A DNA stretch of 36,271 bases from Kofleriaceae bacterium (GCA_036384235.1 DASVMS010000944.1:1-36271), one strand, 5' to 3'. Counted from the stretch's first letter, positions 1 to 26,786 are shown. Notes: a model not told the origin generated them from the letters alone. Numbers and translations: made by a program.

Positions 1-555
1 GTGACCCGGCGCTGCCCGACCGACGCCGCGCGCCGCGCGCTGCGGATCTCGCTGGTCCTGACCGACAACGACGGCGTGCTCACCGACGGCACGGTCTACG
101 TCGGCCCGGGCGGCGAGCAGCTGAAGGTCTACTCGGTGCGCGACGGCATGGGCGTCGAGCGGCTGCGCGAGCGCGGCATCGCGACCGGCGTCGTCACCCG
201 CGAGCCGCCCGACCTGATCGCACCGCGCGCCCAAAAGCTCGCGCTGCGCCATCTGTGGACGTCCGTCCGCGACAAGCAAGCCCAGCTCGACCGGATCCTC
301 GACGAGACCGGCCTCGGTCTCGACCAGCTCGCCTACATCGGCGACGACGTCAACGACCTCGGCATCCTCGGCGCCATCGGCGAGGTCGGCCTGACCGCCG
401 CGCCGGCCGACGCGATGCCACAGGTCCTGGGCGCGGTCCACTACATCTGTGATGCACCCGGCGGGCGCGGCGCATTCCGCGAGGTCGCGGAGTGGCTGCT
501 GCGCCTGCGCACCCAACCGGAGGTCCTTCATGAGGAGCGACGTCAAGATCGGTAA
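1..555 (+). CDS. HAD-superfamily KdsC-type sugar-phosphate phosphatase (KDO-8-P / nonulosonate-9-P phosphatase family). It starts at the window edge and may be 5'-partial.
   Basis: ORF 1..555. HAD motif I appears as LTDNDGVLTDG and the acidic motif as IGDDVNDL. The overall layout is typical of KdsC. The 3' end overlaps the next gene (530..555). Confidence 0.8.
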   Translation: MTRRCPTDAARRALRISLVLTDNDGVLTDGTVYVGPGGEQLKVYSVRDGMGVERLRERGIATGVVTREPPDLIAPRAQKLALRHLWTSVRDKQAQLDRILDETGLGLDQLAYIGDDVNDLGILGAIGEVGLTAAPADAMPQVLGAVHYICDAPGGRGAFREVAEWLLRLRTQPEVLHEERRQDR

Positions 556-1426
556 CAAGCGGGTGGGCGACGGCCGCCCGGTCTACGTGATCGCCGAGAT
601 CGGCATCAACCACAACGGCTCGGTCGACATCGCCAAGCGCATGATCGACGGCGCGGTCCTCGCCGGCTGCGACGCGGTCAAGTTCCAGAAGCGCACCCCC
701 GAGCTGTGCGTGCCGCGCGATCAGTGGCTGATCGAGCGCGACACGCCGTGGGGCCGGATGACGTACATCGACTATCGCCACAAGATCGAGTTCGGCGCCG
801 CCGAGTACGCCGCGATCGACGCCTACTGCCGCGATCGCGGCATCCAGTGGTTCGCCTCGGCGTGGGACGAGGCCGCGGTCGACTTCCTCGAGCAGTTCGA
901 TCCGCCCTGCTACAAGGCCGCCTCGGCCTCGCTCACCGACCACACCCTGCTGCGCGCGATGAAGGCCACCGGCCGGCCGCTGATCATCTCGACCGGCATG
1001 TCGACCATGGACGAGATCGAGGCCGCCGTCGCTGGGGTCGGGACCGTGGGTCGCGACCAGCTCCTGATCGCCCACTCGACCTCGTCGTACCCCTGCCCGG
1101 TCGAGGCGATCAACCTCAACATGATCGCCACCCTCCGCCGGCGCTACGAAGATCGTCCGATCGGCTACTCCGGCCACGAGGTCGGCCTGTCCCCGACCTG
1201 GGCCGCGGTCGCGATGGGCGCGTGCTTCATCGAGCGCCACCTCACCCTCGACCGCGCGATGTGGGGCACCGATCAGGCCGCCTCGGTCGAGGTCAGCGGC
1301 TTCATGCGCCTGGTCCAGAACATCCGCGACATCGAGCGCGCGTTCGGCGACGGCGTCAAGCGCGTCCACGCCAGCGAGCTGGCGAGCCGCACCAAGCTGC
1401 GCCGCGTGATGACCGCCGCGTCGTGA
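530..1426 (+). CDS. NeuB-family sialic/nonulosonic acid synthase (N-acetylneuraminate synthase-like), short form without an obvious C-terminal SAF domain
   Basis: The motifs VIAEIGINHNGS...AVKFQKR, LIISTGMST, GYSGHE and ERHLTLDR match the NeuB TIM-barrel family. The ATG at 530 is preceded by a GGAGG-like sequence (520-524) and was chosen over the longer ORF start at 449. Confidence 0.85.
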   Translation: MRSDVKIGNKRVGDGRPVYVIAEIGINHNGSVDIAKRMIDGAVLAGCDAVKFQKRTPELCVPRDQWLIERDTPWGRMTYIDYRHKIEFGAAEYAAIDAYCRDRGIQWFASAWDEAAVDFLEQFDPPCYKAASASLTDHTLLRAMKATGRPLIISTGMSTMDEIEAAVAGVGTVGRDQLLIAHSTSSYPCPVEAINLNMIATLRRRYEDRPIGYSGHEVGLSPTWAAVAMGACFIERHLTLDRAMWGTDQAASVEVSGFMRLVQNIRDIERAFGDGVKRVHASELASRTKLRRVMTAAS

Positions 1427-2181
1427 CCGGCTCCGCTGCCCTCTGGGCGCCCGTGATCGTCGTCGCCGGCGCCCTCGCGATCATCGCGCTCGAGCGGCTC
1501 CGGCCCTACGACCGCCAGCGCCTCCTGCGCGCCGGCCTCGGCGTCGACCTCGTCGGCTACGCCCTCGTCCAGAGCGCCGTGCTCTCCATCGTGATCCGCG
1601 GCCTGGTCGGCGCGCTCGACGCCGCCACGGGCGCGTCGCGACACGGCCTCGTCGCCGGCTGGCCCCTGGCCGCGCAGCTCGCCCTGTTCATCGTCACGCA
1701 CGACTTCTACATCTACTGGTTTCACCGCGCCCAGCACCGCGTCCCGCTGCTCTGGCGGCTGCACGAGGCCCACCACTCGGCGCGCGAGGTCGACTGGATC
1801 GCCGGCTCGCGGTCGCACGCCCTCGAGATCGTCATCAACCAGACCATCGAGGTCGCCGCCATGGTCCTCCTCGGCGCCTCCGCCGAGGTCATGCTCTACA
1901 AGGGCGCGATCAGCATCGCCTCGGGCATGTGGATCCACGCCAACGTCGACCTCCGCCTCGGCTGGCTGTCCCGCATCCTCAACGGCCCCGAGCTCCACCG
2001 CTGGCACCACGCCATCGACTACGCCCCGCCCGGCAAGAACTACGCGACCAAGTTCGCGCTCTGGGACTACCTGTTCGGCACCGCCGACCGCCGCCCCGGC
2101 AAGCCCGCCGGCTACGGCCTGGCCGATCCGTTCCCCACCGGCTTCCTCGCCCAGCAAGCCCACGCGTTCCGCCGGCGGTAG
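1423..2181 (+). CDS. Fatty acid hydroxylase / sterol desaturase superfamily membrane di-iron enzyme
   Basis: His boxes are present: HDFYIYWFHRAQH, HEAHHS and HRWHH. The N-terminus is hydrophobic. The GTG at 1423 overlaps the neuB-like TGA (GTGA), which indicates translational coupling. Confidence 0.8.
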   Translation: MTGSAALWAPVIVVAGALAIIALERLRPYDRQRLLRAGLGVDLVGYALVQSAVLSIVIRGLVGALDAATGASRHGLVAGWPLAAQLALFIVTHDFYIYWFHRAQHRVPLLWRLHEAHHSAREVDWIAGSRSHALEIVINQTIEVAAMVLLGASAEVMLYKGAISIASGMWIHANVDLRLGWLSRILNGPELHRWHHAIDYAPPGKNYATKFALWDYLFGTADRRPGKPAGYGLADPFPTGFLAQQAHAFRRR

Positions 2182-2300
2182 CGAACCCGATTCCTGCCGT
2201 ACGCATGAGGTGCGTGTTGGTCACCCACGCACTCCTCCGCCATATCGCCTGTTTGACCACGGGCAAGAACTACTGTTTATCTGCGATACCAAAAAATGTA

Positions 2301-2328
2301 TTGATATGAAAACACGGCTTCGTATAAA
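2301..2328 (+). promoter_or_regulatory. Putative sigma70-type promoter for the 2370 gene
   Basis: TTGATA (2301-2306), a 16-nt spacer, then TATAAA (2323-2328), located in the only AT-rich stretch upstream of the ORF. Pattern match only. Confidence 0.3.
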
Positions 2329-2369
2329 GCTTCTTCAACCAGTAGGGAGCTTCACCCAAAAAAGGGGCC

Positions 2370-3410
2370 GTGATGTATCGCAGTAAGAAGGCTCAATCCA
2401 TACATGGAACCAAGCAACGCAGGCGCAGGTGCTGCCTCACGGTGGTGGTCGGTCTCGGAGTGCTGCTGCTCGCCTCGGTGGGGCTCGCCGATTCGCCAGT
2501 CAGGCCCAGATCATCGGGCACCTTCCACCGCGGCTCGCTGACCCTGTCGCTCCACCGGGGTGGAAGTACGCCGTTCGAGGCCTTCCTGCCCGCACTCCCC
2601 TCCAACTGCGAGGGCGAGATGACACTCACGCTGTCGTGGGACGAACAAGAGAACTGGGTGCACGGCAAGCTCGAGGGCGAGCACGTGCTCGTCCCCTACC
2701 CGAGCATCCATCGGACCGACGGGGTCAACTTCTTTCCGAACCCGATCTGGCCCGAGCAGAAGGACTTCATCAACGGGCGCTATCTGCTCTGGACCCTCTC
2801 GCCCGCACGCATGATTACCTTCTACTACGACCGCACCACGTTGGACATCCTGGGCAGCGAGTTCGAGTTCCCCACGCCGCCGCCCGGGGCCATCCCGCTC
2901 ACCATTCCCGGCCTCAAGCTCTTCCCCACACCGTTCTTCCAGCCCGACCACGACGGCAACGTCGATCTCGAGTGGAGCTTGCCCTACGACAACGTGGTAC
3001 GCGGCGATCTCCCCCAGTTCACCCACTCGTACTTCTCCGAGCCCCCGGCGAACCTCTGCCTGTCGAACCCGGTCCGCTACGACCTGTCCACGACCCTCGG
3101 GTACACCAGCCCGGCGCGCCCCGCCGGGGAGGCGCTGTCGTTCTCGGAGTACCTCCGCAACGGGCTCATCTTCGACATCACCGCGGAGCCCCCGGCGTAC
3201 TTCACCTTCCCGCCGGTCGCGGGTCAGACCTCGTTCTACAGCGGCACGACGGTCGTCGGCGGAGGCATCCCCAGAGGCTGGTCGCTCGATCTCGACGCCG
3301 TGTTCATGAACAACGCACCTCCGATCAAGCCGTTTGCGGCGGCGGGTACATGCCAGGACTACTTCGTGCCCCGGCATGCCCCGAACATCGACTTCTGCAA
3401 GCGGCGCTGA
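2370..3410 (+). CDS. Secreted hypothetical protein with no recognisable domain
   Basis: The N-terminus is basic and followed by the hydrophobic signal-like segment CCLTVVVGLGVLLLASVGLADSP. The start is GTG 2370 or ATG 2373, preceded by AAAAGGGG. The codon pattern looks like genuine coding sequence, and the gene sits 15 nt upstream of the peroxidase-like gene. Confidence 0.65.
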   Translation: MMYRSKKAQSIHGTKQRRRRCCLTVVVGLGVLLLASVGLADSPVRPRSSGTFHRGSLTLSLHRGGSTPFEAFLPALPSNCEGEMTLTLSWDEQENWVHGKLEGEHVLVPYPSIHRTDGVNFFPNPIWPEQKDFINGRYLLWTLSPARMITFYYDRTTLDILGSEFEFPTPPPGAIPLTIPGLKLFPTPFFQPDHDGNVDLEWSLPYDNVVRGDLPQFTHSYFSEPPANLCLSNPVRYDLSTTLGYTSPARPAGEALSFSEYLRNGLIFDITAEPPAYFTFPPVAGQTSFYSGTTVVGGGIPRGWSLDLDAVFMNNAPPIKPFAAAGTCQDYFVPRHAPNIDFCKRR

Positions 3411-3425
3411 AAGGAGGCAAGGAAC

Positions 3426-4787
3426 ATGAACCGGACCACGACGCTCATCCTCTCCCCCGGTCTCCTGCTCTCGGCGGCGCTCGCGGCCTGCCAGGATTCC
3501 CCGCTCGGCGAGCCGATCGGCATCGCGCGCGACGACCTGCGATCCGCGAACGACGGCACCTACAACCTCCACCTCGAGGACACCGTCCGCTTCAACCCGA
3601 TCCAGCCGGGCTCCGATCCCGATCGCGGCCGGAGGCTGTTCGGCCTCGCCGGGGACCTCGAGGCCCCGGACGCGAGCCAGGCGCTGTTCCAGGGCCCCTC
3701 GCAGGCGTTCGGCGGCGCCGTCGTCTCGAACGGCCGGACCTGCTTCTCGTGCCACCGCGGCGTGCAGGCGACCTCGCTCGGCCTGCCCCGGCCGCCGCTC
3801 TCGGCGACCATCCCGCTCACCGATCCGGTCTTCACGGGCCTCGACGGCGACGCCCAGGGCGACCCGGACGGGATGCGCAACCTCGATCAGCTCGGCCTCC
3901 TCAAGTACCGGCCGCACCGGTTCAACCTCGCCCGGGCCCAGAGCGATCCGTTCCGGAAGGTCTTCGCGTGGCGCAAGGCCATCCGGCTGGTCAACGTGGC
4001 GTTCTCCGCCGGCTTCCTCAACGACGCCCGAGGCCGGCACATGTTCGAGGTCGAGCGGGGCGCGGTGTTCAGCCACACCCAGGACTCCGACAACCGCTTC
4101 GACGACCTGTTCACGGTGCGGGACGGCAACGACCTGCAGGCGTTCCTGTTCGGCATCCTCTCCGATCCGCGGCTCGCCGCGCTCCGCGACCCGAGCGACC
4201 CGATGTACGCCGTGCTCGTGACCGATCCGTTCTACACCGTGCCGATCGCGACCCAGGCCCAGAAGCGCGGCAGCGAGGTGTTCCGCAGGAATTGCATGAC
4301 CTGCCACAACACGCCCAACGTGTTCAACAACGTCTCCAACGTCGAGCCGCTCGGCAGCGACACCAGGCCGCCCAACTTCCCCTCGTTCGCGCCGGCCGTC
4401 GGACGGACCTTCGACGTCGGGGTCGCCGAGCGCAACCGGCACGGCCTGCGGTTCACCCACGACGACGGCGGTGGACAGTTCTCGCCGATCGTGATCCCGC
4501 TCGCCAACGAGGACGGCTCCACGAACCTGCTCACCGTGACCATCGACCTCGGGCTCGGCGCGATCACCGGGCGGACGGAGGACGTCGGGCGCTTCAAGGT
4601 GCCGCAGCTCCGCGGCGTCAGGAACAACGCGCCCTACTTCCACGACGACTCCGCGTTCTCGCTGGAGGAGGTCGTGGACTACTTCAACAGCGACCACTAC
4701 AACCGCTCGAAGGACGGGAGCAAGTTCCCGATTCACCTCGACGCGAGCCAGCGCGCCGATCTGCTCGCCTTCCTCCAGATCCTCTGA
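3426..4787 (+). CDS. Di-haem cytochrome c peroxidase (CCP/MauG)-like lipoprotein, divergent
   Basis: Lipobox LSAALAAC. Two CxxCH haem motifs (CFSCH, CMTCH). The motif FKVPQLRGVRNNAPYFHDDS resembles the conserved CCP motif. A strong RBS AAGGAGG lies at 3410-3416. Confidence 0.8.
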   Translation: MNRTTTLILSPGLLLSAALAACQDSPLGEPIGIARDDLRSANDGTYNLHLEDTVRFNPIQPGSDPDRGRRLFGLAGDLEAPDASQALFQGPSQAFGGAVVSNGRTCFSCHRGVQATSLGLPRPPLSATIPLTDPVFTGLDGDAQGDPDGMRNLDQLGLLKYRPHRFNLARAQSDPFRKVFAWRKAIRLVNVAFSAGFLNDARGRHMFEVERGAVFSHTQDSDNRFDDLFTVRDGNDLQAFLFGILSDPRLAALRDPSDPMYAVLVTDPFYTVPIATQAQKRGSEVFRRNCMTCHNTPNVFNNVSNVEPLGSDTRPPNFPSFAPAVGRTFDVGVAERNRHGLRFTHDDGGGQFSPIVIPLANEDGSTNLLTVTIDLGLGAITGRTEDVGRFKVPQLRGVRNNAPYFHDDSAFSLEEVVDYFNSDHYNRSKDGSKFPIHLDASQRADLLAFLQIL

Positions 4788-4805
4788 TCGGCCCATCCCT
4801 CGTCG

Positions 4806-5311
4806 CGCGCAGCTCGCCCTGTTCATCGCCACGCACGACCTCCACATCTACTGGTTCCCGCGCCCAGCACCGCGTCCCCCTGCCCTGGCGGCTGCGGAGG
4901 CCACCACTCGGCGCGCGAGGTCGACTGGATCACCGGCTCGCGGTCGCACGCCCTCGAGATCGTCATCAACCAGACCATCGAGGTCGCCGCCATGGTCCTC
5001 CTCGGCGCCTCCGCTGAGTCATGCTCTACAAGGGCGCGACCAGCATCGTCTCGGGCATGTGGATCCACGCCAACGTCGACCTCCGCCTCGGCTGGCTGCC
5101 CCGCGTCCTCAACGGCCCCGAGCTCCACCGCTGGCACCACGCCATCGACTACGCCCCGCCCGGCAAGAACTACGCGACCAAGTTCGCGTTCTGGGACTAC
5201 CTGTTCGGCACCACCGACCGCCGCCCCGGCAAGCCCGCCGGCTACGGCCCGGCCGATCCGTTCCCCACCGGCTTCCTCGCCCAGCAGGCTCACGCGTTCC
5301 GCCGCCGATAG
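4806..5311 (+). pseudogene. Decayed duplicate of the 3' roughly 510 bp of the hydroxylase gene (copy 2)
   Basis: Aligns by eye to 1672..2181 at roughly 95% identity. It carries small indels (for example ctggtttcaccgcg versus ctggttcccgcg, and gaggtcatg versus gagtcatg) that break the frame. The last 96 codons remain in frame (ORF 5021..5311). Confidence 0.85.
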
Positions 5312-5326
5312 CCCAACACAGCTGCT

Positions 5327-5346
5327 CGTAGGCACGCGTGCCTACG
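5327..5346. repeat. 20-bp perfect palindrome CGTAGGCACGCGTGCCTACG
   Basis: Read directly from the sequence. It lies 16 nt after the stop codon of hydroxylase copy 2, at the left edge of cargo segment 2. Confidence 0.7.
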
Positions 5347-5682
5347 CAAGACTCGGAGATCGGCGCCAACGCGCGTCATCGTGGCCACCCTCCCCCCCTG
5401 CGCGTGCTCGATCTCGGAGGCACCTTCGACCACGACCGAAAGAGCTCGTCGAGCTGCGCTGGGCTTTCGATCCTGGCGAGCGTACAAATCGCCTCGCACC
5501 TGGCAGATTCGGGAGACCGCCAACCGGCCTGTGACCGGCGCGACCAAGCTGATCCGGCTGACTCGAGCGCCCCGCTCACAGCCCACCGCCCCGCGCCGAC
5601 GCTCCTTCCTCCGGATTGAATTTGGGTTCTCAGAGAAGAAGACGAATGGTAGGTGCCGGCCGGGGTCACGACCGGGCGCGGC

Positions 5683-5994
5683 TCAGCGCTCCGCCGCCTT
5701 CCGGCGTGCCTCCAACTGCGCAGTGAGCGCGCTGACCTGCGCGTTCGCGAAACGAAGCGATGCGCTCGCCTGCTCCGAGGCCTTCGTGGCGAGCGACAGG
5801 ATCCGGCCGAACACCACGCGCTGGCGATCGTTCGCCGGCAGGGGGAGCGCCTCGGCGGCCGCCTCCGCCGCACGGGCGAGCGCCTCGATGTCGATCACCT
5901 CGGCGCGAAGGTTCTCGAGCGCGGTGCCTGCGTCGAAGTTGATGATCTCGGCGTCTTTGGATACCTTGGACTGGGTGCTGCGATGTGTCTGCAT
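5683..5994 (-). CDS. Small helical hypothetical protein (103 aa), divergent from the HNH gene
   Basis: GC-rich third codon positions. An AGGAG sequence lies 5 nt upstream of the ATG (minus strand). The sequence is Ala/Glu-rich and looks helical. The overlapping plus-strand ORF 5381..6067 is Ser/Arg/Ala-rich and was rejected. Confidence 0.55.
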   Translation of the reverse strand: MQTHRSTQSKVSKDAEIINFDAGTALENLRAEVIDIEALARAAEAAAEALPLPANDRQRVVFGRILSLATKASEQASASLRFANAQVSALTAQLEARRKAAER

Positions 5995-6143
5995 CGTGGC
6001 TCCTGGGCTCGTCGGTGGTGGAACACCGGCGGGCCGCTATGCTCAGACTGCTTGCGCCCCAGATTAAACATTGCCGCTCTGATCGCTTTTCAATGCTTGC
6101 AACTCGGCGGCGGTCGACTGGTCGTGGAGCGCGTGGCGCGACC

Positions 6144-8075
6144 ATGGTCTCGATGTCAGAGCGGTGTGATATGCACTCACGCATGAACGAGCTCGAACAG
6201 CTGGGCGAGCGGATTGCCGAGCAGGCAGCGCACCTCGATGCCGCCATGCATCGGTTCCTCACCGACCTGCGTGAGTTCGACCAGCGCGGCGGCTGGCATC
6301 AGCAGGGCGCGCGGACATGTGCCCACTGGCTCGCCTGGCGGGTCGGCTGGGACCTGGTCACCTCTCGCGAGCGCGTACGGGTCGCGGGCAAGCTCGCCGA
6401 GTTTCCGACGATCGACGATGCGCTGCGCCGCGGCGAGATGTCGTATTCGAAGGTGCGGGCCATGCTGCGCGTGGCGACGCCGGCGAACGAGGTATTGCTG
6501 CTCGAGCATGCGCGGCTCATGACGGCCTCTCAGCTCGAGACACTGTGTCGCAAGTACGCGGTCGTACAGCGCCACGGCCGGGATCCGCATCCCGTGGGCG
6601 ACGAGCAGCGCCGCTATGTCCGCCGCCGCGATACCGACAACGGCATGGTCAAGATCGAGGCCGTGCTTCACCCCGAGGAAGCCGAGCTGGTCTGGACCAT
6701 GCTCAACCACGCCGCGACCCAGCTCGCTCGTGAGCCCGATCGGTCTGCAAGGGACGATTCCGCGGAGTCGTGGGCCACGGCGCCGGCGACCGCGACTGCG
6801 ACCGCGTCGCCACCAGCCGCCGTGGTGGTCACCTCGCCCCTGTCAGATCTCGCCGACCTGAACAGCGATTCCGCGGAATCGCGACCGCAGCCTGAAGCAC
6901 CCACCTCCACTGCGACCACCTCGTCCATCTCCGGCAGGTATTTCGATACCTGCCCGATTGACGATTCCGCGGAATCGCGCCTGCACGCCTCGCCATCTGA
7001 TGCCACCGCGCCCGGGTCGCTGGTCGTACTCGCCGCTTCTGGCGACTTCGGCACCTGCCCGACCAACGATTCCTCGAAATCGCTGCCACACGACGCGGTG
7101 ACCGATGCCGTTGCACCCGTCATCCCCAAGCAGCTCGGTACCTGCCCGACCGACGGTTCCGCGGAATCGCCCAGCCCGGAGTTCCCGCGCCGGTCTCTGC
7201 TCGATCGCCTGCTGGATCAAGCGGATGCACTCCGGATCGCGGAGGGTGGGATGCGTGGCGAGACCGAGGCTCCGTCGAGCACCGGTGAGGCACCATCGAA
7301 CGGCCAGGCCGCAGCGCGCACGCCGGGTCGGTTGCAGCAGCGAGCGGACGCGGCCATGCGTGCGTTCAACCGCGCCGACGCCCTGCTCGCGGTCGCACAG
7401 CAATACCTGCGCGGCGATCGGCCGAACCGCTCGCCGATCGAGATCGTGCTCACGATCCCCGAGAGCAGCCTCCGCGCCGGGGCCGCCGATCCGCTCGAGA
7501 CAGGCGAGATGGGAGAGTCGTTCGTGTCCAGCGAGACCGCGCGCCGGCTCAGCTGTGATGCGGGCGTGGTCGAGATCATCGAGGACGAGTGCGGTACGCC
7601 GCTATCGGTCGGACGCAAGCGCCGCACGGTGGCAGGAGCGCTCAAGCGCGCGCTGCGCAAGCGCGATACGATCTGCTGTTACCCTGGCTGCACGAATCGC
7701 ATGTTCCTGGAAGGGCATCATATCAAGCACTGGGTGGATGGCGGAGAAACCAGCTTGCGGAACAGCGCTTTGCTGTGCAGCGCCCATCACCGGTATGCTC
7801 ACGAGTACGGATATGCGATCGAGCTCGGTCCGGATCAGCGACCCCGATTCCGCGATCCGCATGGCCGTCTGGTTGCGCAGGTTCCCGAGCGGCCTGTGAT
7901 CGCGGACCTCGGCTGGCCTCGACTCCGTGCGGAGAACGTGCCGCTTTCGATCACGGCGGATACGATCGCTTGCGGGTGGGATGGCACGGCGGCCAACTAC
8001 GGCGAGATCGTCGGCCATCTCTTGGTCGCCGATGGCATTCCGGGCTCGCGGGCATCGACGGCGCGTTGTACCTGA
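6144..8075 (+). CDS. DUF222-domain HNH endonuclease (REP13E12-like family)
   Basis: The N-terminus matches the DUF222 pattern (FDQRGGWHQQGARTCAHWLAWRVGWDLVTSRERVRVAGKL...GEMSYSKVRAM). The C-terminal HNH motif is CCYPGCTN...EGHHIKHWVDGGETSLRNSALLCSAHH. The start is uncertain: in-frame ATGs occur at 6144, 6153, 6171 and 6183, and the ORF is open from 5985. Confidence 0.85.
   Translation: MVSMSERCDMHSRMNELEQLGERIAEQAAHLDAAMHRFLTDLREFDQRGGWHQQGARTCAHWLAWRVGWDLVTSRERVRVAGKLAEFPTIDDALRRGEMSYSKVRAMLRVATPANEVLLLEHARLMTASQLETLCRKYAVVQRHGRDPHPVGDEQRRYVRRRDTDNGMVKIEAVLHPEEAELVWTMLNHAATQLAREPDRSARDDSAESWATAPATATATASPPAAVVVTSPLSDLADLNSDSAESRPQPEAPTSTATTSSISGRYFDTCPIDDSAESRLHASPSDATAPGSLVVLAASGDFGTCPTNDSSKSLPHDAVTDAVAPVIPKQLGTCPTDGSAESPSPEFPRRSLLDRLLDQADALRIAEGGMRGETEAPSSTGEAPSNGQAAARTPGRLQQRADAAMRAFNRADALLAVAQQYLRGDRPNRSPIEIVLTIPESSLRAGAADPLETGEMGESFVSSETARRLSCDAGVVEIIEDECGTPLSVGRKRRTVAGALKRALRKRDTICCYPGCTNRMFLEGHHIKHWVDGGETSLRNSALLCSAHHRYAHEYGYAIELGPDQRPRFRDPHGRLVAQVPERPVIADLGWPRLRAENVPLSITADTIACGWDGTAANYGEIVGHLLVADGIPGSRASTARCT
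6755..7169 (+). repeat. Five in-frame copies of a 16-18 bp palindromic motif (consensus CGATTCCGCGGAATCG) inside the HNH gene
   Basis: Copies lie at 6755-6770, 6866-6881, 6962-6977, 7067-7082 (degenerate) and 7154-7169. The spacings are 111, 96, 105 and 87 nt, all multiples of 3. Each copy encodes D-S-A-E-S (DSSKS in the degenerate copy 4). The last three are preceded by GTCP(T/I)(D/N). Confidence 0.75.
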
Positions 8076-8256
8076 CCGGCGGACTGGCCGAAGCGCGCGC
8101 AATACCTCGAGCTCGCGCTCGGGGCGTCCTGGTCACCCGCTCCCCCGGTGACTCCGCGACTGCCGGGCGGTGTTCCCAATGATCCATCATCGCCCGATGG
8201 CCATCCGAACGCGAAGGGGCGCCAGGGTCATTCTGGACAAGGCCGGCCAGGACGAG

Positions 8257-8384
8257 TCACCGCGCCCAGCACCGCACCCCCGGCTGTGGCGGCTGCACGC
8301 AAGCCCGCCGGTTACGGCCTGGCCGATCCCTTCCCCACTGGCTTCCTCGCCCAGCAAGCCCACGCCTTCCGCCGGGCACATTGA
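8257..8384 (+). pseudogene. Internally deleted remnant of the hydroxylase gene (copy 3)
   Basis: Positions 8257-8300 resemble 1722-1765 (tcaccgcgcccagcaccgc...ctggcggctgcacg). Positions 8301-8384 resemble 2100-2181 (aagcccgccggctacggcctggccgatccgttcccc...cagcaagcccacgc). ORF 8148..8384 ends in KPAGYGLADPFPTGFLAQQAHAFRR. Confidence 0.75.
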
Positions 8385-8612
8385 CACCTATTCCGCGCGG
8401 AGAGCAATGGCCATCACGACCTCCGCCGTCGGAGGATGGACGGCCCCTTTGGCGGAGATATCCCCGCGCCATTGCGCTCCTCGGTGGATCTCAGAACGTG
8501 CGGGCGGTCAGCTTTTTGCAGCCTCCGATGACGATCCTGGTAGCGCTTGGTTAAGAGCTAGCCGGGCGCAGGCGCGCGACGGCAGTTCGGCATCGACGAA
8601 TCGACGACTGGA

Positions 8613-8903
8613 TCATCGCGACTCGGCCCAGGCACCCGCCTGGACGAGCGCGAGCCCGCGGTGGCGGACCGGGGCCGAAAGTCGGCCGGCGACCGCGGCC
8701 TCGAGCGCCTCGACGAGCTCGCCCGCGGTGGAGAACCGGTCGGCCGACTGCTTGGCGAGGCCGATCGCGAGCACAAGATCGACCTGGGGCGGGAGCTCGG
8801 GCGCGAGATCGCTCGGGCGGCGCGGCGGCGTGTGTCGGAGGCAGTACAGCAGATCGGCGAGATCGGTGGCGGTGAACGGCGGGTGGCCGATATCGAGCGA
8901 GGG
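8613..8903 (-). pseudogene. C-terminal remnant of a Ser/Thr protein kinase catalytic domain, with no start codon and no N-lobe
   Basis: My own translation of the minus-strand frame between stops gives LDIGHPPFTATDLADLLYCLRHTPPRRPSDLAPELPPQVDLVLAIGLAKQSADRFSTAGELVEALEAAV... This matches the subdomain X-XI pattern of Hanks-type kinases (PPF ... P ... LAK.P..RF.sa.El...L). This frame is not in the supplied ORF track because it has no start codon. Confidence 0.55.
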
Positions 8904-8929
8904 TCATGGCCGCCGCCGTGGATCGGCCG

Positions 8930-10288
8930 CTACTCGCAGCTGCCGGAGGCCGGCACCAAGCTCGCCTGATCGTCGTCGGTGAGGGTCCGCAGGAAGCAGA
9001 GCAGATCGCTCATCTCCTGCTCGGTCATGAGTGGCTCGCCACCCGCCGAGCGGCCGTCGAGCGGCAGCTGCTTGTCGATGTTCTTGCGATGCGCCGCGGG
9101 CAGATCGTCGAACTTCTGCACGGTGCCGCCGGCGTACTGGGTGGTGATGAGGCCGTAGCGCGGAAACTCGGGGTCGGGCCTGGGCCTGGCTCGACCGCCG
9201 ACGGTCGGGTACCAGAGCTCGGGCCGGGTGTCGCGGGTGTTGTAGAACCGGACCGCCTGCTCGAGCGAGTGGATGACGCCATTGTGGAAGAACACGCGCC
9301 GGGTAGCGGCGTTGCGCAAGGTCGGTGTCTTGAACAGGCCGCAGAACTCGGGGAAGCGCACGTGATCGTCGCGCTCGGGGCCACAGACGCCGAGATCGGT
9401 GTAGCGGCGATCGCGATTGGCGGGGATCTGCGGGTTGCGCGGGACGCCGATCGCCTCGAACGAGAAGTCGGTGAACTGCGGCGGCGCGCCGTCGTCCTGG
9501 CTCGCGTCGGAGAAGTGGCAGCCGGAGCAGTTGCCGGTCTTCGGATCCTTGAACACGCGCAGGCCGCGCGCCTCGGCAGGCGTGAGCTCGCCGCCGGGCT
9601 TGTGGTAGAGGTGTCGATCGTACTTGCTGCTGTAAGGATGAAAGCTCGGATCTTCGAGCTGGAAGGACTGCAGGGCGAGCTGGATCTTGCCGAACGCGAC
9701 CTCGACGTTGGCGAGCGCCGGATCACCGAACGCCTGGACGAACGCCGCGGCCGAGGCCGATGCCCGCAGCCGGGCCACCACCGCCGCCGGGGTGGCGTTG
9801 GCCATCTCGAACGGCGACAGGAGTGGGATCCGGGCCTGCTCGGCGAGCGAATCGGCGCGGCCGTCCCAGGCGAACCCACCGCCGGGACCGGGTGGGCTGA
9901 ACCCGTCGGCGTTGTCGAGCAGATCGGCATACCCGGGCGTGAACTCCTTGTAGCGGAGCGACGGGACCGCGCGCACGCCGGGCGACGTGCCAAGGGGACC
10001 GCCGAGCTGCACCGCCAGGTCGTTGGCTGGTCCGTAGCCATGCTCGGGGTCATGGCAGGTCGCGCACGCCATGCGGCCGGACGCCGACAGCGCCTGGTCG
10101 AAGAACAACTGCTTGCCCGCCTGGGCCGCCGCGCTCAGCGGACGCGGGTGGGGTGCCGCCGAGACGAGCCGCGGCGGCGGCGCGGAGGCTGGATGAGAGT
10201 CGACGGGATCATCGGTCCTCGAGCACGCTGCCAGGGCGAGCGTGGCGAGCAACCACCCCGCGCGGTCCCAGGTTCCTGGATACGTCAT
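8930..10288 (-). CDS. Di-haem cytochrome c peroxidase / MauG-family lipoprotein
   Basis: Lipobox LALAAC. Haem motifs CATCH and CSGCH. FKTPTLRNAATRRVFFHNGV matches the CCP signature. Confidence 0.85.
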   Translation of the reverse strand: MTYPGTWDRAGWLLATLALAACSRTDDPVDSHPASAPPPRLVSAAPHPRPLSAAAQAGKQLFFDQALSASGRMACATCHDPEHGYGPANDLAVQLGGPLGTSPGVRAVPSLRYKEFTPGYADLLDNADGFSPPGPGGGFAWDGRADSLAEQARIPLLSPFEMANATPAAVVARLRASASAAAFVQAFGDPALANVEVAFGKIQLALQSFQLEDPSFHPYSSKYDRHLYHKPGGELTPAEARGLRVFKDPKTGNCSGCHFSDASQDDGAPPQFTDFSFEAIGVPRNPQIPANRDRRYTDLGVCGPERDDHVRFPEFCGLFKTPTLRNAATRRVFFHNGVIHSLEQAVRFYNTRDTRPELWYPTVGGRARPRPDPEFPRYGLITTQYAGGTVQKFDDLPAAHRKNIDKQLPLDGRSAGGEPLMTEQEMSDLLCFLRTLTDDDQASLVPASGSCE

Positions 10289-10324
10289 GCGTCCTCCGCA
10301 CCGGTCATCACGACACGGCGGCGA

Positions 10325-12547
10325 CTACTGGTTGGTCAGGCTGAAGTCGAACATGTCGAACAGATCGGTGAGCGCCGGCATGTTCGTCGGGACGTACGGA
10401 TTGTCCGCGGTGGTGATCGGATCGGGCAAGTTGTCGCGGCTGCGGCCGGTGATCGGCGCGAGCGACCAGTTGCGCTCGATGAACTTCAAGATCGACACGT
10501 GGTCCGCGTAGCCGTGGTTGATGGTGCCGCCCCGGGTATAGGGCGAGACGATGATCAGCGGGATCCGCGTGCCGTCGCCGAAGAAGTCGAGCGGCTGGAT
10601 GAACCCCGAGTCGTAATAGCCGCCGCCCTCGTCGAACGTGACGATCACGGCGGTGCTCGCCTCGAGCGCGGGGTTGGCATGCAGCTTGGCCAGGATGTTC
10701 CTGGCGTAGGCCTCGAACAGGCCGAGCTTGGACGACGACGGGTGGCCGTCGAGGGCGCCGTCGGGGTGAGCGAACGAGACCGCCGGCAGCGTGCCGTTGG
10801 CGATGTCGGTGAACATGTCGACGGTGTCCTTGATGTGCTCGGCGCGAGCCGCCGGATCCGCCATGACCTGGGTCTGGTACTCGAACGGATTACAGATCTG
10901 GCAATACCCCGTGCCGCGGTTGAACCCGCCGCCGTAGAACCGCCAGGAGATCCCCTTCTCGCTGAGCGAGTCACCGATCGAGCGCTGGGTGGTCGCCGGC
11001 ACGAACGTCCCCGAGGTCTTCAGCGTGCCATCGGGATTGTACGCGGGGTTGGTGTTATTCAGGTAGTAGTACGTGTTGGCCGCGCAGTTCGGGCTCGGGT
11101 GGTACGGCAGCGATCCGAGGTAGCTCACGATCGGGCCCACGCCCGGCGCAGCGGCGTCCGAGCAGTTGCTGAAGTTGCCGTCGAGCGTGTAGCGGTTGTT
11201 GGTGCCGGGCCGCGGGTTCGGGTTGGCGACGAGGCTCGCGGGCGGCGGGACCGGGTTGCCCATGCCGTCGGTCCAGGCCACGGCGTCGCCGAAGCCCAGC
11301 ATCGAGTGGTTGGCGCCGGTGCCGCCCTGCACCGACTGGTGCATGTTGTCGCTCATCGCGAAGTTGTCGGCGAGCATCTTGAAGAACGGGACGTCACCGT
11401 TGTTCACGTTGAAGAACGCCATCGAGCTGCCGACGCCGTTGTCCGCGGAGGAGAACGAGATCGCCACGAACGGGAACAGGTCGCTCACGCAGCCGCTCGG
11501 GTTATCCGCGGTGGCCTGGGCGACCGAGCAATCGGTCTGCTGCCACATCTGATAGAAGCGATGGATGGTGTCGCCGGTGTACGCGTCGTACGGCATGGTC
11601 GGCCCGGTCATCTGGAACGGACCGTCGGGCAACGCCCCGGCGTTGGTCACGCGCGTGTCGAGCACGCGGGCCGGCAGCCCGGTCGCGCCGGTGGTCAAGA
11701 GGCCGAGATCCGCGGGATCGATGTCGGTCTCGGAGCGCGCCTGATCGATGGTCTGAAACGGCGACGCGGTGGTCCGCTGCGCGCTCGGCGCGCCGGATGT
11801 GCTCGGCCCCGGCAGGACGGCGTACCGCGTCTTGCTTGCCGGGGAGAGGTAGAACGCGGCCTGGGACGCGGCCTCGGTCTGGGCGGCGAGCGCGAAGCTC
11901 GGACCCGGCGTGCCGTCGGGGTTCACGATCCCCTTCGACACCAGGTTCGCCACCGTCTGGCCGGCGCGCGGGACGTAGGTGCCGAACGTGTGATCGAACG
12001 TGCGGTTCTCGCCGATGAGGACGATCACGTGCTTGATCGGCGTCTGTGGCGCCGGCTCGGAGCACACGACGTCGACCGACCGCGACGACGCGCAGGCGGG
12101 ATCGCCGTCGGACGCCGCCAGGGTGACCGTCACCAGGCCGGTCTTCGTGCAGGTCAGGGCCGCGCTCGGCGTCGACGCGCCGGCGAGGCGCCCCGAGGTC
12201 GACGTCCAGCTGAACGCGAGCGGCGACGGGACGTGGTCGACATCGACGGCGGTGGCGGCAAGGCCGATCGTGCTGCCGACCGCGACCTCGGCCGGGCTGG
12301 CGGCGATGCCATCGATCCGCGGGCAGGCGTTCAGCGTGCCATTGACCACGATGCTGCCGGTGCCGGGTTGCAGATCGCAGGTCATGTGGACCGCCACCGA
12401 CCTGATCGCTACCCGGTCGATGTCGAAGGTCGCCGAGCCCACGCAAGCGCCGGTTCCACCGAGGGTGATGCCGCGGAGCGTGATCTGGTAACCGACGCCG
12501 AACGGGATCCCGCTGATGACGGCGCTGACCGTCGAGCTGTGGGTCAC
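10325..12547 (-). CDS. Phosphoesterase-family protein (phospholipase C / AcpA acid phosphatase type) with an N-terminal Ig-like region
   Basis: IKHVIVLIGENRTFDHTFGTY and IPLIIVSPYTRGGTINHGYADHVSILKFIERNW are hallmarks of the PF04185-type phosphoesterase family. GTG at 12547 is the only available start. No signal peptide is present. Confidence 0.8.
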   Translation of the reverse strand: MTHSSTVSAVISGIPFGVGYQITLRGITLGGTGACVGSATFDIDRVAIRSVAVHMTCDLQPGTGSIVVNGTLNACPRIDGIAASPAEVAVGSTIGLAATAVDVDHVPSPLAFSWTSTSGRLAGASTPSAALTCTKTGLVTVTLAASDGDPACASSRSVDVVCSEPAPQTPIKHVIVLIGENRTFDHTFGTYVPRAGQTVANLVSKGIVNPDGTPGPSFALAAQTEAASQAAFYLSPASKTRYAVLPGPSTSGAPSAQRTTASPFQTIDQARSETDIDPADLGLLTTGATGLPARVLDTRVTNAGALPDGPFQMTGPTMPYDAYTGDTIHRFYQMWQQTDCSVAQATADNPSGCVSDLFPFVAISFSSADNGVGSSMAFFNVNNGDVPFFKMLADNFAMSDNMHQSVQGGTGANHSMLGFGDAVAWTDGMGNPVPPPASLVANPNPRPGTNNRYTLDGNFSNCSDAAAPGVGPIVSYLGSLPYHPSPNCAANTYYYLNNTNPAYNPDGTLKTSGTFVPATTQRSIGDSLSEKGISWRFYGGGFNRGTGYCQICNPFEYQTQVMADPAARAEHIKDTVDMFTDIANGTLPAVSFAHPDGALDGHPSSSKLGLFEAYARNILAKLHANPALEASTAVIVTFDEGGGYYDSGFIQPLDFFGDGTRIPLIIVSPYTRGGTINHGYADHVSILKFIERNWSLAPITGRSRDNLPDPITTADNPYVPTNMPALTDLFDMFDFSLTNQ

Positions 12548-18896: not shown

Positions 18897-19023
18897 GCCC
18901 GATCGGTATCGCGCCCGCGCCGCGCTGTAAACGAGAGCCTCGACTGCAACACACGCCTGATGCTTCGCCGCCGTGCTGCATGACGTGCGCCGGTGGAGCA
19001 CGGCGGCGTGCTACGCTGACGTC

Positions 19024-19623
19024 GTGAAGGTCGCGTTGCATCTGCCTCGTCGGGCCACGTATGCGGACTACCTCGCCACGGAACAAACCAGCGAGAGCCG
19101 GCACGAATTCATCGACGGCGTGATCGTCGCGATGGCCGGCGGGTCCGATGAGCACAATGCGATCGCGTCCCGCTTCAACGGCTTGTTCATGACGCGCCTG
19201 TCTCGCGGATGCCTCAGCTACACGCCCGATCAGCGATTCTGGATCGAGGCGACCGCGCGCGGCCGCTACAGCGATGGCTCGATCATCTGCGGCAAGCCGG
19301 CGCATCCCTCGCACGACCATCAGGCGACCACGAATCCTGCCGTGGTGGTCGAGGTGCTGTCCCGCACCAGCGAGGGTGACGACGAGGGCAACAAGCGCCG
19401 GGACTTCCAGTCGCTCGCGTCGCTCGAGGCCTACGTGATCGCAGCACAGGATGCGCGATGCGTGAAGGTCTACCGCCGCACCGAGCGTGGCGCGTGGACC
19501 GACGAACCAGACGTCTATCGCGCTGGCGACCGCTTCGAGTTGCCGAAGCTTTCGCGCGCGATCGCGGTCGATGACGTTTACGACGACATCCTCGATGCGG
19601 CCGGTCGGTCGCTGTTGCGCTGA
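19024..19623 (+). CDS. Uma2-family (DUF820) PD-(D/E)xK putative endonuclease
   Basis: EFIDGVIVAMAGGSDEHNAI ... PDQRFWI ... NPAVVVEVLSRTSEGDDEGNKRRDFQSL..EAYV fits the Uma2 pattern. GTG 19024 was chosen. Confidence 0.8.
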   Translation: MKVALHLPRRATYADYLATEQTSESRHEFIDGVIVAMAGGSDEHNAIASRFNGLFMTRLSRGCLSYTPDQRFWIEATARGRYSDGSIICGKPAHPSHDHQATTNPAVVVEVLSRTSEGDDEGNKRRDFQSLASLEAYVIAAQDARCVKVYRRTERGAWTDEPDVYRAGDRFELPKLSRAIAVDDVYDDILDAAGRSLLR

Positions 19624-19710
19624 CCCGCCGCTCGCTGTCTGAGCCGCCCGCTGGCGGCGGTGTGCGCCCGTGCACCGTCGGAACGCCTCACGTACGCGGC
19701 GTCTCCCAGA

Positions 19711-21383: not shown

Positions 21384-21566
21384 TCAGGTCGCCGCCCGGT
21401 CGTCTCCGACGGGCTTGAAGTCCGCCTTCTCGTTCACCGCGCAGTCGGGGCAGCACCACGCCTGGGGGATCTGCGCCCAGAGCGTTCCGGGCGCGAAGCC
21501 CTGGTGCGCATCGCCGCGGGCCTCGTCGTAGACGTAGCCGCAGCCGGGGCAGCGATAGCGCATCAT
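21384..21566 (-). CDS. rubA: Rubredoxin
   Basis: The CPGCG ... CCPDC iron-binding pairs and a WxxIPxxWxCPxC-type pattern. The protein is 60 aa. Its ATG overlaps the alkB TGA (ATGA). Confidence 0.9.
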   Translation of the reverse strand: MMRYRCPGCGYVYDEARGDAHQGFAPGTLWAQIPQAWCCPDCAVNEKADFKPVGDDRAAT

Positions 21567-22756: not shown

Positions 22757-22852
22757 CCACGGAATCTAAGTCAACCCGCACGACTTTACCAGGCGATCTG
22801 TGCGGGTGCGTTCTGGCATAGAACGGAACTCTCACGCTGCCGCACCGCCGAA

Positions 22853-26686: not shown

Positions 26687-26758
26687 CGTGCGAATCCTGG
26701 ACGGTCCAGAGGTTCGCGCACAACCCTGACAAGACGCAAAATCCTCCAAAATCACGCA

Positions 26759-26786
26759 CAGATGCGCGGATCCGCTCTCGCATCTG
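26759..26786. promoter_or_regulatory. Inverted repeat CAGATGCG-(12 nt)-CGCATCTG between patD and the deaminase gene
   Basis: Read directly: an 8-bp perfect stem in the lower-GC 162-bp spacer. It could be a patD terminator or an operator or leader element of the deaminase operon. There is no clear U-tract. Confidence 0.35.

What the first reader, a model, noticed from the sequence alone, without database searches (positions are those of the whole stretch)
1672..8384. Three nested copies of the hydroxylase 3' end delimit two stacked cargo segments with no recombinase
Seen in sequence: the last roughly 510 bp of the intact hydroxylase gene (1672-2181) recur at 4806-5311, at roughly 95% identity with frameshifting indels. 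A shorter, internally deleted remnant lies at 8257-8384. The stop codons of copies 1 and 2 are followed immediately by unrelated, partly AT-rich DNA. Established knowledge: integrative elements that target the 3' end of a gene carry a replacement 3' end, displace the old one, and can stack in tandem, with the youngest closest to the intact gene. Inference: two successive insertions occurred here, segment 2 first and segment 1 later. The repeats are unusually long and protein-coding rather than tRNA, they include all three His boxes, and neither segment encodes an integrase, transposase or relaxase. The only nuclease is a DUF222/HNH protein. An alternative explanation is break repair or gene conversion triggered by that HNH enzyme.
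Basis: partly seen in the sequence, partly recalled or inferred. Interest (0 to 1): 0.7.

Follow-up and report, generated by a model that had tools for sequence, protein, structure and literature searches.

The report
Stacked leftover ends of hydroxylase gene
A soil myxobacterial lipid-hydroxylase gene is followed by two decaying copies of its own tail, with ordinary chromosomal DNA and a selfish nuclease gene wedged between them; the evidence points to scars of repeated sloppy recombination at a variable spot rather than to a new kind of mobile element.

Summary
Bases 1671-2182 recur at 4806-5312 (95.1%, 4 indels), and a shorter, internally deleted third copy lies at 8257-8384.

The reading as stacked integrative elements is not supported:
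- No recombinase, tRNA, terminal repeats or shared segment ends were found anywhere in the 36-kb contig.
- The two displaced copies begin at different gene positions (1671 and 1722).
- Segment 1 is an ordinary Myxococcota two-gene operon, a secreted protein plus a MauG-like di-haem enzyme. It is 87% identical to a copy with different neighbours elsewhere.
- Segment 2 is a DUF222/HNH gene block also found at another locus in relatives. It ends in 88 nt that, in the closest relative, lie in the intergenic DNA downstream of the hydroxylase.

In relatives, the site just after the hydroxylase stop codon holds inserts of 0 to 3.8 kb, none with hydroxylase remnants.

Best explanation: two successive 3'-end displacements by non-site-specific recombination (homologous on the left, illegitimate on the right, or template switching). 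This resembles the C-terminal displacement proposed for rhs and T6SS loci, but without toxin logic. A causal role for the HNH enzyme is unproven. No empty site was found.

The parts
1423..2181 (+). Intact fatty-acid/lipid hydroxylase gene (FA_hydroxylase, distantly OlsE-like). It is the last gene of a conserved kdsC-like / neuB / hydroxylase block.
   Evidence: Pfam full-model match; NCBIfam OlsE match at 131 bits, below the cutoff; GC3 frame plot; 1-2181 is syntenic at 84-92% in the closest Kofleriaceae relatives (77% in the more distant L006/L007).
1671..2182 (+). Copy 1: the part of the intact gene that is repeated downstream. It includes the His boxes and the TAG stop.
2182..2396 (+). AT-rich leader of segment 1 (GC about 0.55), of unknown origin. 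It is not alignable to the region upstream of the same operon in L162.
2370..3410 (+). Segment 1, gene 1: predicted secreted protein (346 aa) with no known family. Its partnership with the next gene is conserved in relatives.
3426..4787 (+). Segment 1, gene 2: di-haem cytochrome c, a MauG/MbnH-like enzyme (453 aa). It is a widespread Myxococcota chromosomal gene (86% aa to the best hits, 65-68% to Sorangium).
4798..4805 (.). Junction J1: 8 nt (CCTCGTCG) between the end of homology to the operon (10 nt past its stop codon) and the start of copy 2. It has no recognisable site.
4806..5312 (+). Copy 2: displaced, frameshifted 3' fragment of the hydroxylase (equivalent to 1671-2182). Its first 131 nt are more diverged from copy 1 than the remaining 380 nt (9.2% against 3.4%, P about 0.015).
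5509..5645 (-). One unit of a roughly 110-nt repeat. In L160 it forms a tandem array next to the homologous HNH gene.
5683..5994 (-). Small ORF (103 aa, no family) that travels with the HNH gene in L160/L169. There it is in the opposite orientation relative to HNH.
6144..8075 (+). DUF222 plus HNH endonuclease gene (13E12-repeat family). The database gene call starts at 6183 (630 aa). It has an internal low-complexity repeat at about 6857-7170 and a lower GC3 (about 0.8) than the host genes.
8167..8254 (+). Stretch colinear with the intergenic DNA downstream of the hydroxylase in relative L110 (L110 3482-3516 and 3635-3687). Part of it resembles the sequence directly after the stop codon in L080/L167.
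8255..8256 (.). Junction J2: 2 nt (AG) between the intergenic-type DNA and hydroxylase position 1722.
8257..8384 (+). Copy 3: the oldest displaced 3' fragment. It equals 1722-1774 joined to 2099-end, with about 324 bp deleted between imperfect short repeats. Its tail ...GCACATTGA is of the type seen in L110 and L005, not the RRR-TAG type of copies 1 and 2.

Best explanation
The locus is a scar series left by two successive 3'-end displacements made by non-site-specific recombination, not by mobile elements with their own machinery.

The stretch just after the hydroxylase stop codon is a strain-variable hot spot in this Kofleriaceae lineage.

Older event: a stretch made of hydroxylase 3' end, a DUF222/HNH block and the first ~90 nt of the normal downstream intergenic DNA was laid in. 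Recombination on the left was homologous, inside the gene. The right end was joined illegitimately to the resident gene at position 1722. The resident tail was therefore pushed downstream as copy 3.

Younger event: the same thing happened with hydroxylase 3' end plus a complete secreted-protein/di-haem-enzyme operon. The right end, 10-18 nt past that operon's stop, was joined to gene position about 1661-1671. This pushed copy 2 downstream.

The incoming DNA could have been chromosomal DNA of a relative (homology-facilitated illegitimate recombination). For the younger event it could equally have been an ectopic template in the same genome (replication template switching).

Shown: the repeats, their relative decay, the nature of the cargo and the identity of the junction sequences. 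Inferred: the recombination pathway and the source of the DNA.
For: 1. Repeats and junctions are as described.
2. Copy 2 is a neutrally decaying copy of almost the same allele as copy 1. Of 27 differences, 20 are unique to copy 2 and absent from 17 relatives. The substitutions split 5/6/5 over codon positions, and there are frameshifts.
3. Copy 3 is older and of another allele type. Its tail ACATTGA matches L110. All 4 of its differences from copy 1 in 2099-2175 are third-codon positions (P=0.012 under neutrality), and several fall at sites that are polymorphic among relatives.
4. The right end of segment 2 matches hydroxylase-downstream intergenic DNA of L110. J2 is therefore a head-to-tail junction of downstream DNA onto the gene interior.
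5. Segment 1 is an ordinary operon with different neighbours in relatives. It is truncated 10 nt after its stop codon.
6. Hot spot: in relatives a convergent metallophosphoesterase gene lies 30 nt, 0.7, 2.1, 3.0 or 3.8 kb after the hydroxylase stop, and other relatives have other downstream DNA altogether.
7. That right-flank gene is absent from the window, so only left-side homology is available here.
8. No recombinase, tRNA, Rfam RNA, terminal inverted repeat or common core was found.
9. Precedent: serial displacement leaving strings of orphaned 3' regions has been attributed to homology-facilitated illegitimate recombination in V. cholerae T6SS and rhs loci (PMC5361080).
Against: - No donor haplotype with hydroxylase followed by the operon, or by the HNH block, was found among 159 hydroxylase-centred loci or 3 operon-centred loci.
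- No intermediate or empty state of this lineage was found.
- The two left breakpoints lie only 51 nt apart, at the first His box. This has about a 13% chance if breakpoints were uniform within the gene and hints at a non-random cause.
- The parental sequences at the junctions are too diverged to score microhomology.
- The similarity of 8167-8202 to the L080 post-stop motif is weak on its own (z=1.9).
- Natural uptake or transfer routes in Kofleriaceae were not examined.
Confidence: 0.5

Rival explanations
1. HNH-triggered break repair. The DUF222/HNH protein, or a paralogue elsewhere in the genome, acts as a free-standing homing-type endonuclease that cuts the conserved His-box-1 coding region of the hydroxylase. 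The left end invades a homologous hydroxylase copy and copies its 3' end plus whatever lies downstream. The extended end is then end-joined to the barely resected right end. This leaves the old 3' part, starting at the cut site, downstream.
For: - An intact HNH motif sits in the older segment.
- Both displaced copies start within 51 nt of each other at the most conserved motif of the gene.
- A paralogous HNH gene in L166 sits between fragments of a partial copy of the neighbouring FGE-sulfatase gene.
- The family is multi-copy, with at least 4 copies in one sample's long contigs, and only the ORF is conserved between copies, as in free-standing endonuclease genes.
- DUF222/13E12 genes coincide with structural-variant breakpoints and are DNA-damage induced in M. 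tuberculosis (PMC13157036).
Against: - Five other loci with this HNH family (L160, L161, L164, L165, L169) show no flanking partial gene duplications.
- L166 is equally explained by insertion into one of two old tandem paralogues (fragments 72-83% identical).
- No relative has an HNH gene next to the hydroxylase.
- The younger event carries no nuclease.
- No cleavage specificity is known for this family. In M. tuberculosis the breakpoints are attributed to homologous recombination between copies, not to cleavage.
Confidence: 0.15
2. Purely intragenomic replication error, with fork stalling and template switching (microhomology-mediated break-induced replication). Replication past the hydroxylase stop jumped to another place in the same genome (the operon; earlier, the HNH region). 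It copied a few kb and jumped back about 500 bp behind the departure point, duplicating the gene tail around a templated insert.
For: - Before decay, copy 1 and copy 2 were nearly identical alleles.
- The cargo is host-like in codon usage (GC3 0.87-0.96 for segment 1).
- Both junctions are head-to-tail type with 0-8 nt of unassignable sequence.
- The same contig holds another copy-insert-copy arrangement (19710-21356 and 22853-24504, 90% identical, around an oppositely oriented desaturase gene).
Against: - Copy 3 appears to be a different allele from copies 1 and 2, which an intragenomic copy does not predict for the older event.
- No second copy of the operon or of the HNH block is present in the contig, and the operon's protein cluster has one member on one contig.
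- The rest of the genome is unavailable.
Confidence: 0.2
3. One reading: two tandemly integrated site-specific elements that target the hydroxylase 3' end and carry a replacement end. They are now without integrase because it was lost, or they are mobilised in trans like cis-mobilisable elements.
For: - The architecture (intact gene, cargo, displaced 3' end, repeated twice, youngest nearest the gene) is the classic picture.
- The site is variable among relatives.
Against: - No recombinase gene lies in the 36 kb.
- The left edges differ (1671 and 1722), and there is no shared core or arm sequence.
- The cargo is an ordinary operon, plus a gene block found at a different conserved locus in L160/L169.
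- The right arm of segment 2 is target-downstream DNA.
- Neither cargo recurs next to hydroxylase genes in 159 loci.
- Inserts in relatives lack hydroxylase repeats.
Confidence: 0.08
4. Assembly artefact: a chimeric metagenome contig that strings together strain variants of the locus.
For: - The window is an entire metagenome-type contig, and no read data are available.
- Several related strains with different downstream DNA exist in soils.
Against: - The copies differ every ~20 nt on average, and the longest exact match is 83 nt.
- Copy 2 and copy 3 carry unique frameshifts and a deletion seen in no relative.
- The junctions operon-end/gene-interior and intergenic/gene-interior cannot arise by walking through a shared k-mer between strain variants of an unduplicated locus.
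Confidence: 0.05

Closest known systems
C-terminal (3'-end) displacement arrays in rhs and T6SS effector-immunity loci, attributed to homology-facilitated illegitimate recombination (Jackson et al. 2009, as cited in Kirchberger et al. 2017, PMC5361080)
   Same: An intact gene is followed by strings of 5'-truncated copies of its own 3' region. The newest addition lies next to the intact gene. No recombinase is present. The proposed mechanism is a homologous anchor on the 5' side with an illegitimate join on the 3' side.
   Different: There the displaced tips are different toxin domains kept with their immunity genes, and the arrays are thought to be selected. Here the gene is a lipid hydroxylase, the displaced tips are the same sequence as the current one, they are decaying, and the cargo is unrelated housekeeping-type DNA plus a selfish nuclease gene. 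It therefore looks like a neutral by-product.
Tandem arrays of integrative elements at the 3' end of tRNA or protein genes (attL/attR duplication, cis-mobilisable elements)
   Same: Nested direct repeats of the target's 3' end delimit cargo blocks, and the target gene stays intact.
   Different: There is no integrase, no common core and no element-specific arms. The repeat edges are not in register, the repeats are very long (510 bp), and the cargo is not found elsewhere with these boundaries.
Minimal mobile elements / strain-variable cassettes between conserved flanking genes exchanged by homologous recombination (Neisseria; recalled from my own knowledge, not checked in a paper here)
   Same: In relatives, the interval between the hydroxylase and a conserved convergent gene holds different inserts of 0-3.8 kb with no mobility genes.
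   Different: In the window the right-hand conserved flank is missing. Exchange could therefore not be two-sided, which may be why duplications arose.
Free-standing homing endonuclease genes (intronless homing in T4-type phages; recalled from my own knowledge) and the mycobacterial REP13E12 / DUF222-HNH repeat family
   Same: A stand-alone HNH gene lies beside a conserved gene, and the family is multi-copy with only the ORF conserved. In M. tuberculosis the family coincides with structural variation (PMC13157036).
   Different: No cleavage site, no presence/absence polymorphism at this site and no co-conversion tract could be shown. The 13E12 family has no established mobility mechanism.

Membership tests
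Site-specific integrative element array (genomic islands / IMEs / CIMEs at a gene 3' end) | A tyrosine or serine recombinase encoded in the element, or adjacent to an att site | tested here: not met
   Pfam scans of the large ORFs across the 36-kb contig found no integrase, transposase or relaxase. PHROGs found only HNH.
Site-specific integrative element array (genomic islands / IMEs / CIMEs at a gene 3' end) | The same core (att) sequence at the same target position at every junction | tested here: not met
   Copy 2 starts at gene position about 1661-1671 and copy 3 at 1722. No shared sequence occurs at the left or right ends of the two segments. A later deletion of the copy 3 edge cannot be excluded.
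Site-specific integrative element array (genomic islands / IMEs / CIMEs at a gene 3' end) | The same cargo with the same boundaries recurs at the same target in other genomes | tested here: not met
   Neither the segment-1 nor the segment-2 proteins were found in 159 hydroxylase-centred loci. The operon and the HNH block occur in other contexts.
Site-specific integrative element array (genomic islands / IMEs / CIMEs at a gene 3' end) | An empty site in close relatives (target followed directly by the DNA right of the last repeat) | tested here: inconclusive
   No relative closer than 91-95% was found, and none shares the DNA right of 8385.
Site-specific integrative element array (genomic islands / IMEs / CIMEs at a gene 3' end) | Excision as a circle | not testable with these tools
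   This needs reads or PCR from the source sample.
3'-end (C-terminal) displacement array by one-sided homologous recombination (HFIR-like) | An intact gene followed by 5'-truncated copies of its own 3' end, the older copies further away and more decayed | tested here: met
   Copy 2 has 3.9% unique changes. Copy 3 is about 10% diverged and carries a 324-bp deletion.
3'-end (C-terminal) displacement array by one-sided homologous recombination (HFIR-like) | The inserted DNA is chromosomal DNA that lies downstream of the same gene in a donor | tested here: inconclusive
   Met for the right end of segment 2 (8167-8254 matches the L110 hydroxylase-downstream intergenic DNA). No donor was found with the operon or the HNH block directly after the hydroxylase.
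3'-end (C-terminal) displacement array by one-sided homologous recombination (HFIR-like) | Illegitimate right-hand junctions with little or no homology | tested here: inconclusive
   J1 has 8 nt and J2 has 2 nt of unassignable sequence. The parental sequences are only known from relatives 6-13% diverged, so microhomology cannot be scored.
3'-end (C-terminal) displacement array by one-sided homologous recombination (HFIR-like) | Polymorphic-toxin logic: displaced tips are different toxin domains with cognate immunity genes | tested here: not met
   The tips are the same hydroxylase sequence. The cargo has no toxin, immunity or defence hits.
Free-standing homing endonuclease locus | An intact nuclease domain | tested here: met
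   Pfam DUF222 plus HNH. The HNH motif region is readable in the translation. PHROGs gives HNH hits.
Free-standing homing endonuclease locus | Presence/absence polymorphism of the nuclease gene at this site among relatives, with a cleavable site in the nuclease-free alleles | tested here: not met
   No hydroxylase-centred locus carries a DUF222/HNH gene. Cleavage itself is not testable here.
Transposon / insertion sequence | A transposase, terminal inverted repeats and a short target-site duplication | tested here: not met
   No transposase was found. No terminal inverted repeats score above shuffles for either segment. The flanking repeat is 510 bp of gene, not a short duplication.

The most novel reading that the evidence does not exclude
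DUF222/HNH (13E12-family) genes are free-standing homing-type endonucleases. Their cuts in conserved coding motifs, here the first His box of a lipid hydroxylase, are repaired by copying a homologous gene tail plus its downstream DNA, followed by end joining. The nuclease would then drive recombinase-free stacking of gene cassettes behind an intact target gene. This would give the long-unexplained 13E12 repeat family a mechanism.
Probability: 0.1. Interest if true: 0.7.

Novelty: new member of a known kind. Interest (0 to 1): 0.3.

Why it matters
If the main reading is right, this is a clean example of serial 3'-end displacement outside toxin loci. Such arrays would then arise as a neutral by-product of one-sided recombination at a strain-variable spot, so they are not on their own evidence for an integrative element or for selection on variable tips. 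That is a useful caution for island-calling from direct repeats.

It also documents an insertion hot spot just after a conserved lipid-modification operon in uncultured Kofleriaceae, and a multi-copy DUF222/HNH family in Myxococcota. The more interesting possibility, that the HNH enzyme causes such rearrangements, is only weakly supported.

Tried and rejected
- **Empty site.** I scanned genome contigs and metagenome contigs with the hydroxylase and searched the large protein database, then looked up the context of the best hit. The best relatives are 91-95% identical, and none shares the DNA right of copy 3.
- **Source contig.** An exact look-up of the di-haem protein found nothing on record.
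- **Hydroxylase remnants in relatives.** None were found by tblastn or short-word blastn, either within the inserts or at their far ends. I therefore dropped the idea that a tiny hydroxylase-tail remnant (GCGTTCC) precedes the post-stop motif in L110 and in the window.
- **Simple tandem duplication.** The DNA after copy 3 is not significantly similar to the intergenic-type DNA before copy 3, or to the post-stop DNA of relatives, so this is not supported for the older event. For the younger event it would require a precise loss of a second operon copy.
- **Segment ends.** No terminal inverted repeats or shared ends, no inverted repeats of 40 nt or more, no tRNA or tmRNA, no Rfam match at E up to 0.1 in 1-12000, and no promoter or terminator consensus of note.
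- **Family scans.** PADLOC gave nothing for the cargo, and NCBIfam gave only weak, below-cutoff MauG/MbnH-family matches to the di-haem enzyme and nothing for the other cargo proteins.
- **tblastx of the segment flanks** against all loci gave only compositional noise in this high-GC DNA and was disregarded.
- **Invertible segment.** Inverted repeats that could explain the flipped small-ORF block next to HNH were not found.
- **Literature.** A search on DUF222 found no described mobility mechanism.

Full report
**What is there**

The window is a whole 36,271-bp contig with 69.5% GC. Its closest relatives are uncultured soil Kofleriaceae (Myxococcota). A GC3 frame plot, ORF list and Pfam scan give the left end as:
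- a kdsC-like phosphatase (1-555)
- neuB (449-1426)
- a hydroxylase of the FA_hydroxylase family (about 1423-2181), distantly OlsE-like

- Copy 1 (1671-2182) matches copy 2 (4806-5312) at 95.1%, with 4 gap openings.
- Copy 3 is 8257-8309 (equal to 1722-1774) joined to 8299-8375 (equal to 2099-2175). It lacks about 324 bp internally and ends in its own TGA at 8382-8384.
- Copy 2 needs three frames to be read.

**The two segments**

Segment 1 (2182-4805) holds three parts:
- an AT-rich leader
- a 346-aa predicted secreted protein
- a 453-aa di-haem, MauG/MbnH-like enzyme

This gene pair is an ordinary chromosomal operon of Myxococcota:
- The best hits are 86% identical in protein, and Sorangium homologues are 65-68%.
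- In L162 the pair is 87% identical in DNA over window 2397-4797. Its upstream neighbour there is a divergently oriented peptidase M20 gene, not a hydroxylase; two other contigs have other neighbours again.
- Homology to L162 stops 10 nt after the stop codon, and copy 2 begins 8 nt later.

Segment 2 (5313-8256) contains a repeat unit (5509-5645), a small ORF (5683-5994, minus strand) and a DUF222/HNH gene (6144/6183-8075).
- This block is shared with L160 and its syntenic counterpart L169 (window 5509-8099). There it sits at a different, conserved locus, and the small-ORF/repeat part is in the opposite orientation.
- The HNH family is large in Kofleriaceae-type metagenomes (784 hits). At least four copies sit on the long contigs of one sample, and only the ORF is conserved between paralogous loci.

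**The key junction evidence**

The last 88 nt of segment 2 (8167-8254), directly left of copy 3, are colinear with L110 3482-3516 and 3635-3687. The matches are 36 nt at 86% and 53 nt at 94% (E=5e-17).

In L110 this DNA lies in the intergenic region between the hydroxylase and the conserved convergent gene downstream. L110 is the closest relative of copy 1, at 94.7% identity. The first part also corresponds to the sequence that follows the stop codon directly in L080/L167.

J2 therefore joins hydroxylase-downstream DNA head-to-tail onto the gene interior. That is the signature of a duplication or templated copy, not of an element arm. No terminal inverted repeats, no common sequence at the ends of the two segments, no tRNA and no Rfam RNA were found. 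No recombinase domain was found in the large ORFs scanned across the contig.

**History read from the copies**

I compared the copies with 17 relatives.
- Of 27 differences between copy 1 and copy 2, 20 are unique to copy 2. Substitutions fall 5/6/5 on the three codon positions, and there are frameshifts. Only 5 differences are derived in copy 1.
- Before decay the two copies were thus almost the same allele (at most 7 differences in 510 nt). That is closer than any relative, where the best identity is about 94.7%.
- Divergence is uneven: 9.2% in the first 131 nt against 3.4% in the rest (P about 0.015). Later gene conversion between the copies is one possible cause.
- Copy 3 is older and appears to be a different allele. 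Its tail ...GCACATTGA is the L110/L005 type, whereas copies 1 and 2 end RRR-TAG.
- All four of its differences from copy 1 in 2099-2175 are third-codon changes, several at sites that vary among relatives (P=0.012 under neutral decay).

The older event seems to have swapped in another allele of the gene tail.

**Relatives**

In all close relatives, homology to the window runs from base 1 to the last codons of the hydroxylase and then stops. Downstream, a convergent metallophosphoesterase gene lies at 30 nt (L081, L087, L088/89), 0.7 kb (L003), 2.1 kb (L094), about 3 kb (L001, L004) or 3.8 kb (L110). L080/L167 have other DNA there.

The spot is therefore an insertion and replacement hot spot. 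None of these loci has a second hydroxylase fragment. The convergent gene is absent from the window. No relative shares the DNA right of 8385, so the empty-site test could not be made.

**Mechanism**

The simplest account is two successive 3'-end displacements without a dedicated recombinase. In each, DNA carrying the gene tail plus downstream material recombined homologously inside the gene. Its far end was joined illegitimately back onto the gene interior (about 1661-1671 and 1722). This preserved an intact gene and pushed the old tail downstream.

This is the scheme proposed for strings of orphaned 3' regions in rhs loci and for T6SS immunity arrays, under the name homology-facilitated illegitimate recombination (PMC5361080). 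Here there is no toxin or immunity logic, and the displaced tips are simply decaying.

- For the younger event, an intragenomic template switch is an equally good source of the insert.
- A simple tandem duplication explains neither event. The DNA after copy 3 does not match the DNA before it. A duplication including the operon would also have left a second operon copy.
- An assembly artefact is unlikely, because the copies carry private mutations, the longest identical run is 83 nt, and the junctions are unique.

**The HNH question**

Points in favour of a causal role:
- The two left breakpoints lie 51 nt apart at the first His box. That has about a 13% chance within the gene.
- An HNH gene sits in the older segment.
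- In L166 a paralogous HNH gene lies between fragments of a partial copy of the adjacent FGE-sulfatase gene.
- In M. tuberculosis, DUF222/13E12 genes coincide with inversion breakpoints and are DNA-damage induced (PMC13157036).

Points against:
- Five other HNH loci show no such duplications.
- L166 fits insertion into an old paralogue.
- No hydroxylase locus in relatives carries an HNH gene.
- No cleavage specificity is known for this family.

I give this reading about 0.15, and 0.1 for the stronger claim that it is a general mechanism.

**Verdict**

The integrative-element interpretation is not supported. The structure is best seen as a new instance of recombinase-free 3'-end displacement at a variable locus. 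It is of modest interest, with an untested but more interesting nuclease-driven alternative.

Noticed in passing
L166:6594-10856: A paralogous DUF222/HNH gene (7001-8899) lies between fragments of a decayed partial copy of the FGE-sulfatase gene, which is intact 0.9 kb downstream. The matches are 6600-6759 to 10070-10234 (78%), 8978-9056 to 10506-10587 (83%) and 9088-9238 to 10702-10856 (72%). About 270 nt of the gene copy are missing where the HNH gene sits.
   Followed up: partly
window 5509-6059 compared with L160:6801-7873 and L169:1-500: The small ORF plus repeat-unit block next to the HNH gene is inverted relative to the HNH gene, compared with L160/L169. L160 has 4-5 tandem repeat units of about 110 nt where the window has one. 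No flanking inverted repeats were found.
   Followed up: partly
window 19710-21356 and 22853-24504: Two intact amine-oxidase paralogues (541 and 547 aa, 90% nt identity) flank an oppositely oriented fatty-acid desaturase gene (21563-22765). This is another copy-insert-copy arrangement on the same contig.
   Followed up: no
L081, L087, L088/L089, L003, L094, L001, L004, L110 (DNA downstream of the hydroxylase): The interval between the hydroxylase stop and a conserved convergent metallophosphoesterase gene ranges from 30 nt to 3.8 kb, with unrelated inserts and no mobility genes seen. In L110, for example, the insert is a DUF7948/SBBP beta-propeller gene. The C-terminal 1-4 codons of the hydroxylase differ between lineages from the same point (...GCGTTCCGCCG).
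   Followed up: partly
window 6857-7170: The HNH protein has an internal low-complexity repeat region (units containing DSAES) whose copy number varies between homologues in L160, L161, L165, L166 and L169.
   Followed up: no
window 1423-1426: The neuB stop and the likely GTG start of the hydroxylase overlap (GTGA), which suggests translational coupling. The 491-aa ORF 706-2181 in the ORF list is mostly out of the coding frame, as shown by GC3.
   Followed up: partly
window 18961-19623 and 25193-26848: A Uma2-family putative restriction endonuclease gene and a large cytidine-deaminase-domain protein (with a MafB19-like deaminase hit) lie further downstream. Neither is adjacent to the repeats.
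   Followed up: no
window 5313-5345: Directly after the copy 2 stop lies a perfect 9-bp-stem palindrome (GTAGGCACGCGTGCCTAC). A weaker hairpin follows the copy 1 stop (ACGCA..TGCGT at about 2202-2220). The two regions share TGCC(G)TACGCA(T/A)GA, but this is not significant against shuffles.
   Followed up: partly
window 3426-4787 and 8930-10288: Two distantly related di-haem cytochrome c peroxidase/MauG-type genes (26% identity over the C-terminal part) sit on either side of the repeat array, on opposite strands.
   Followed up: no
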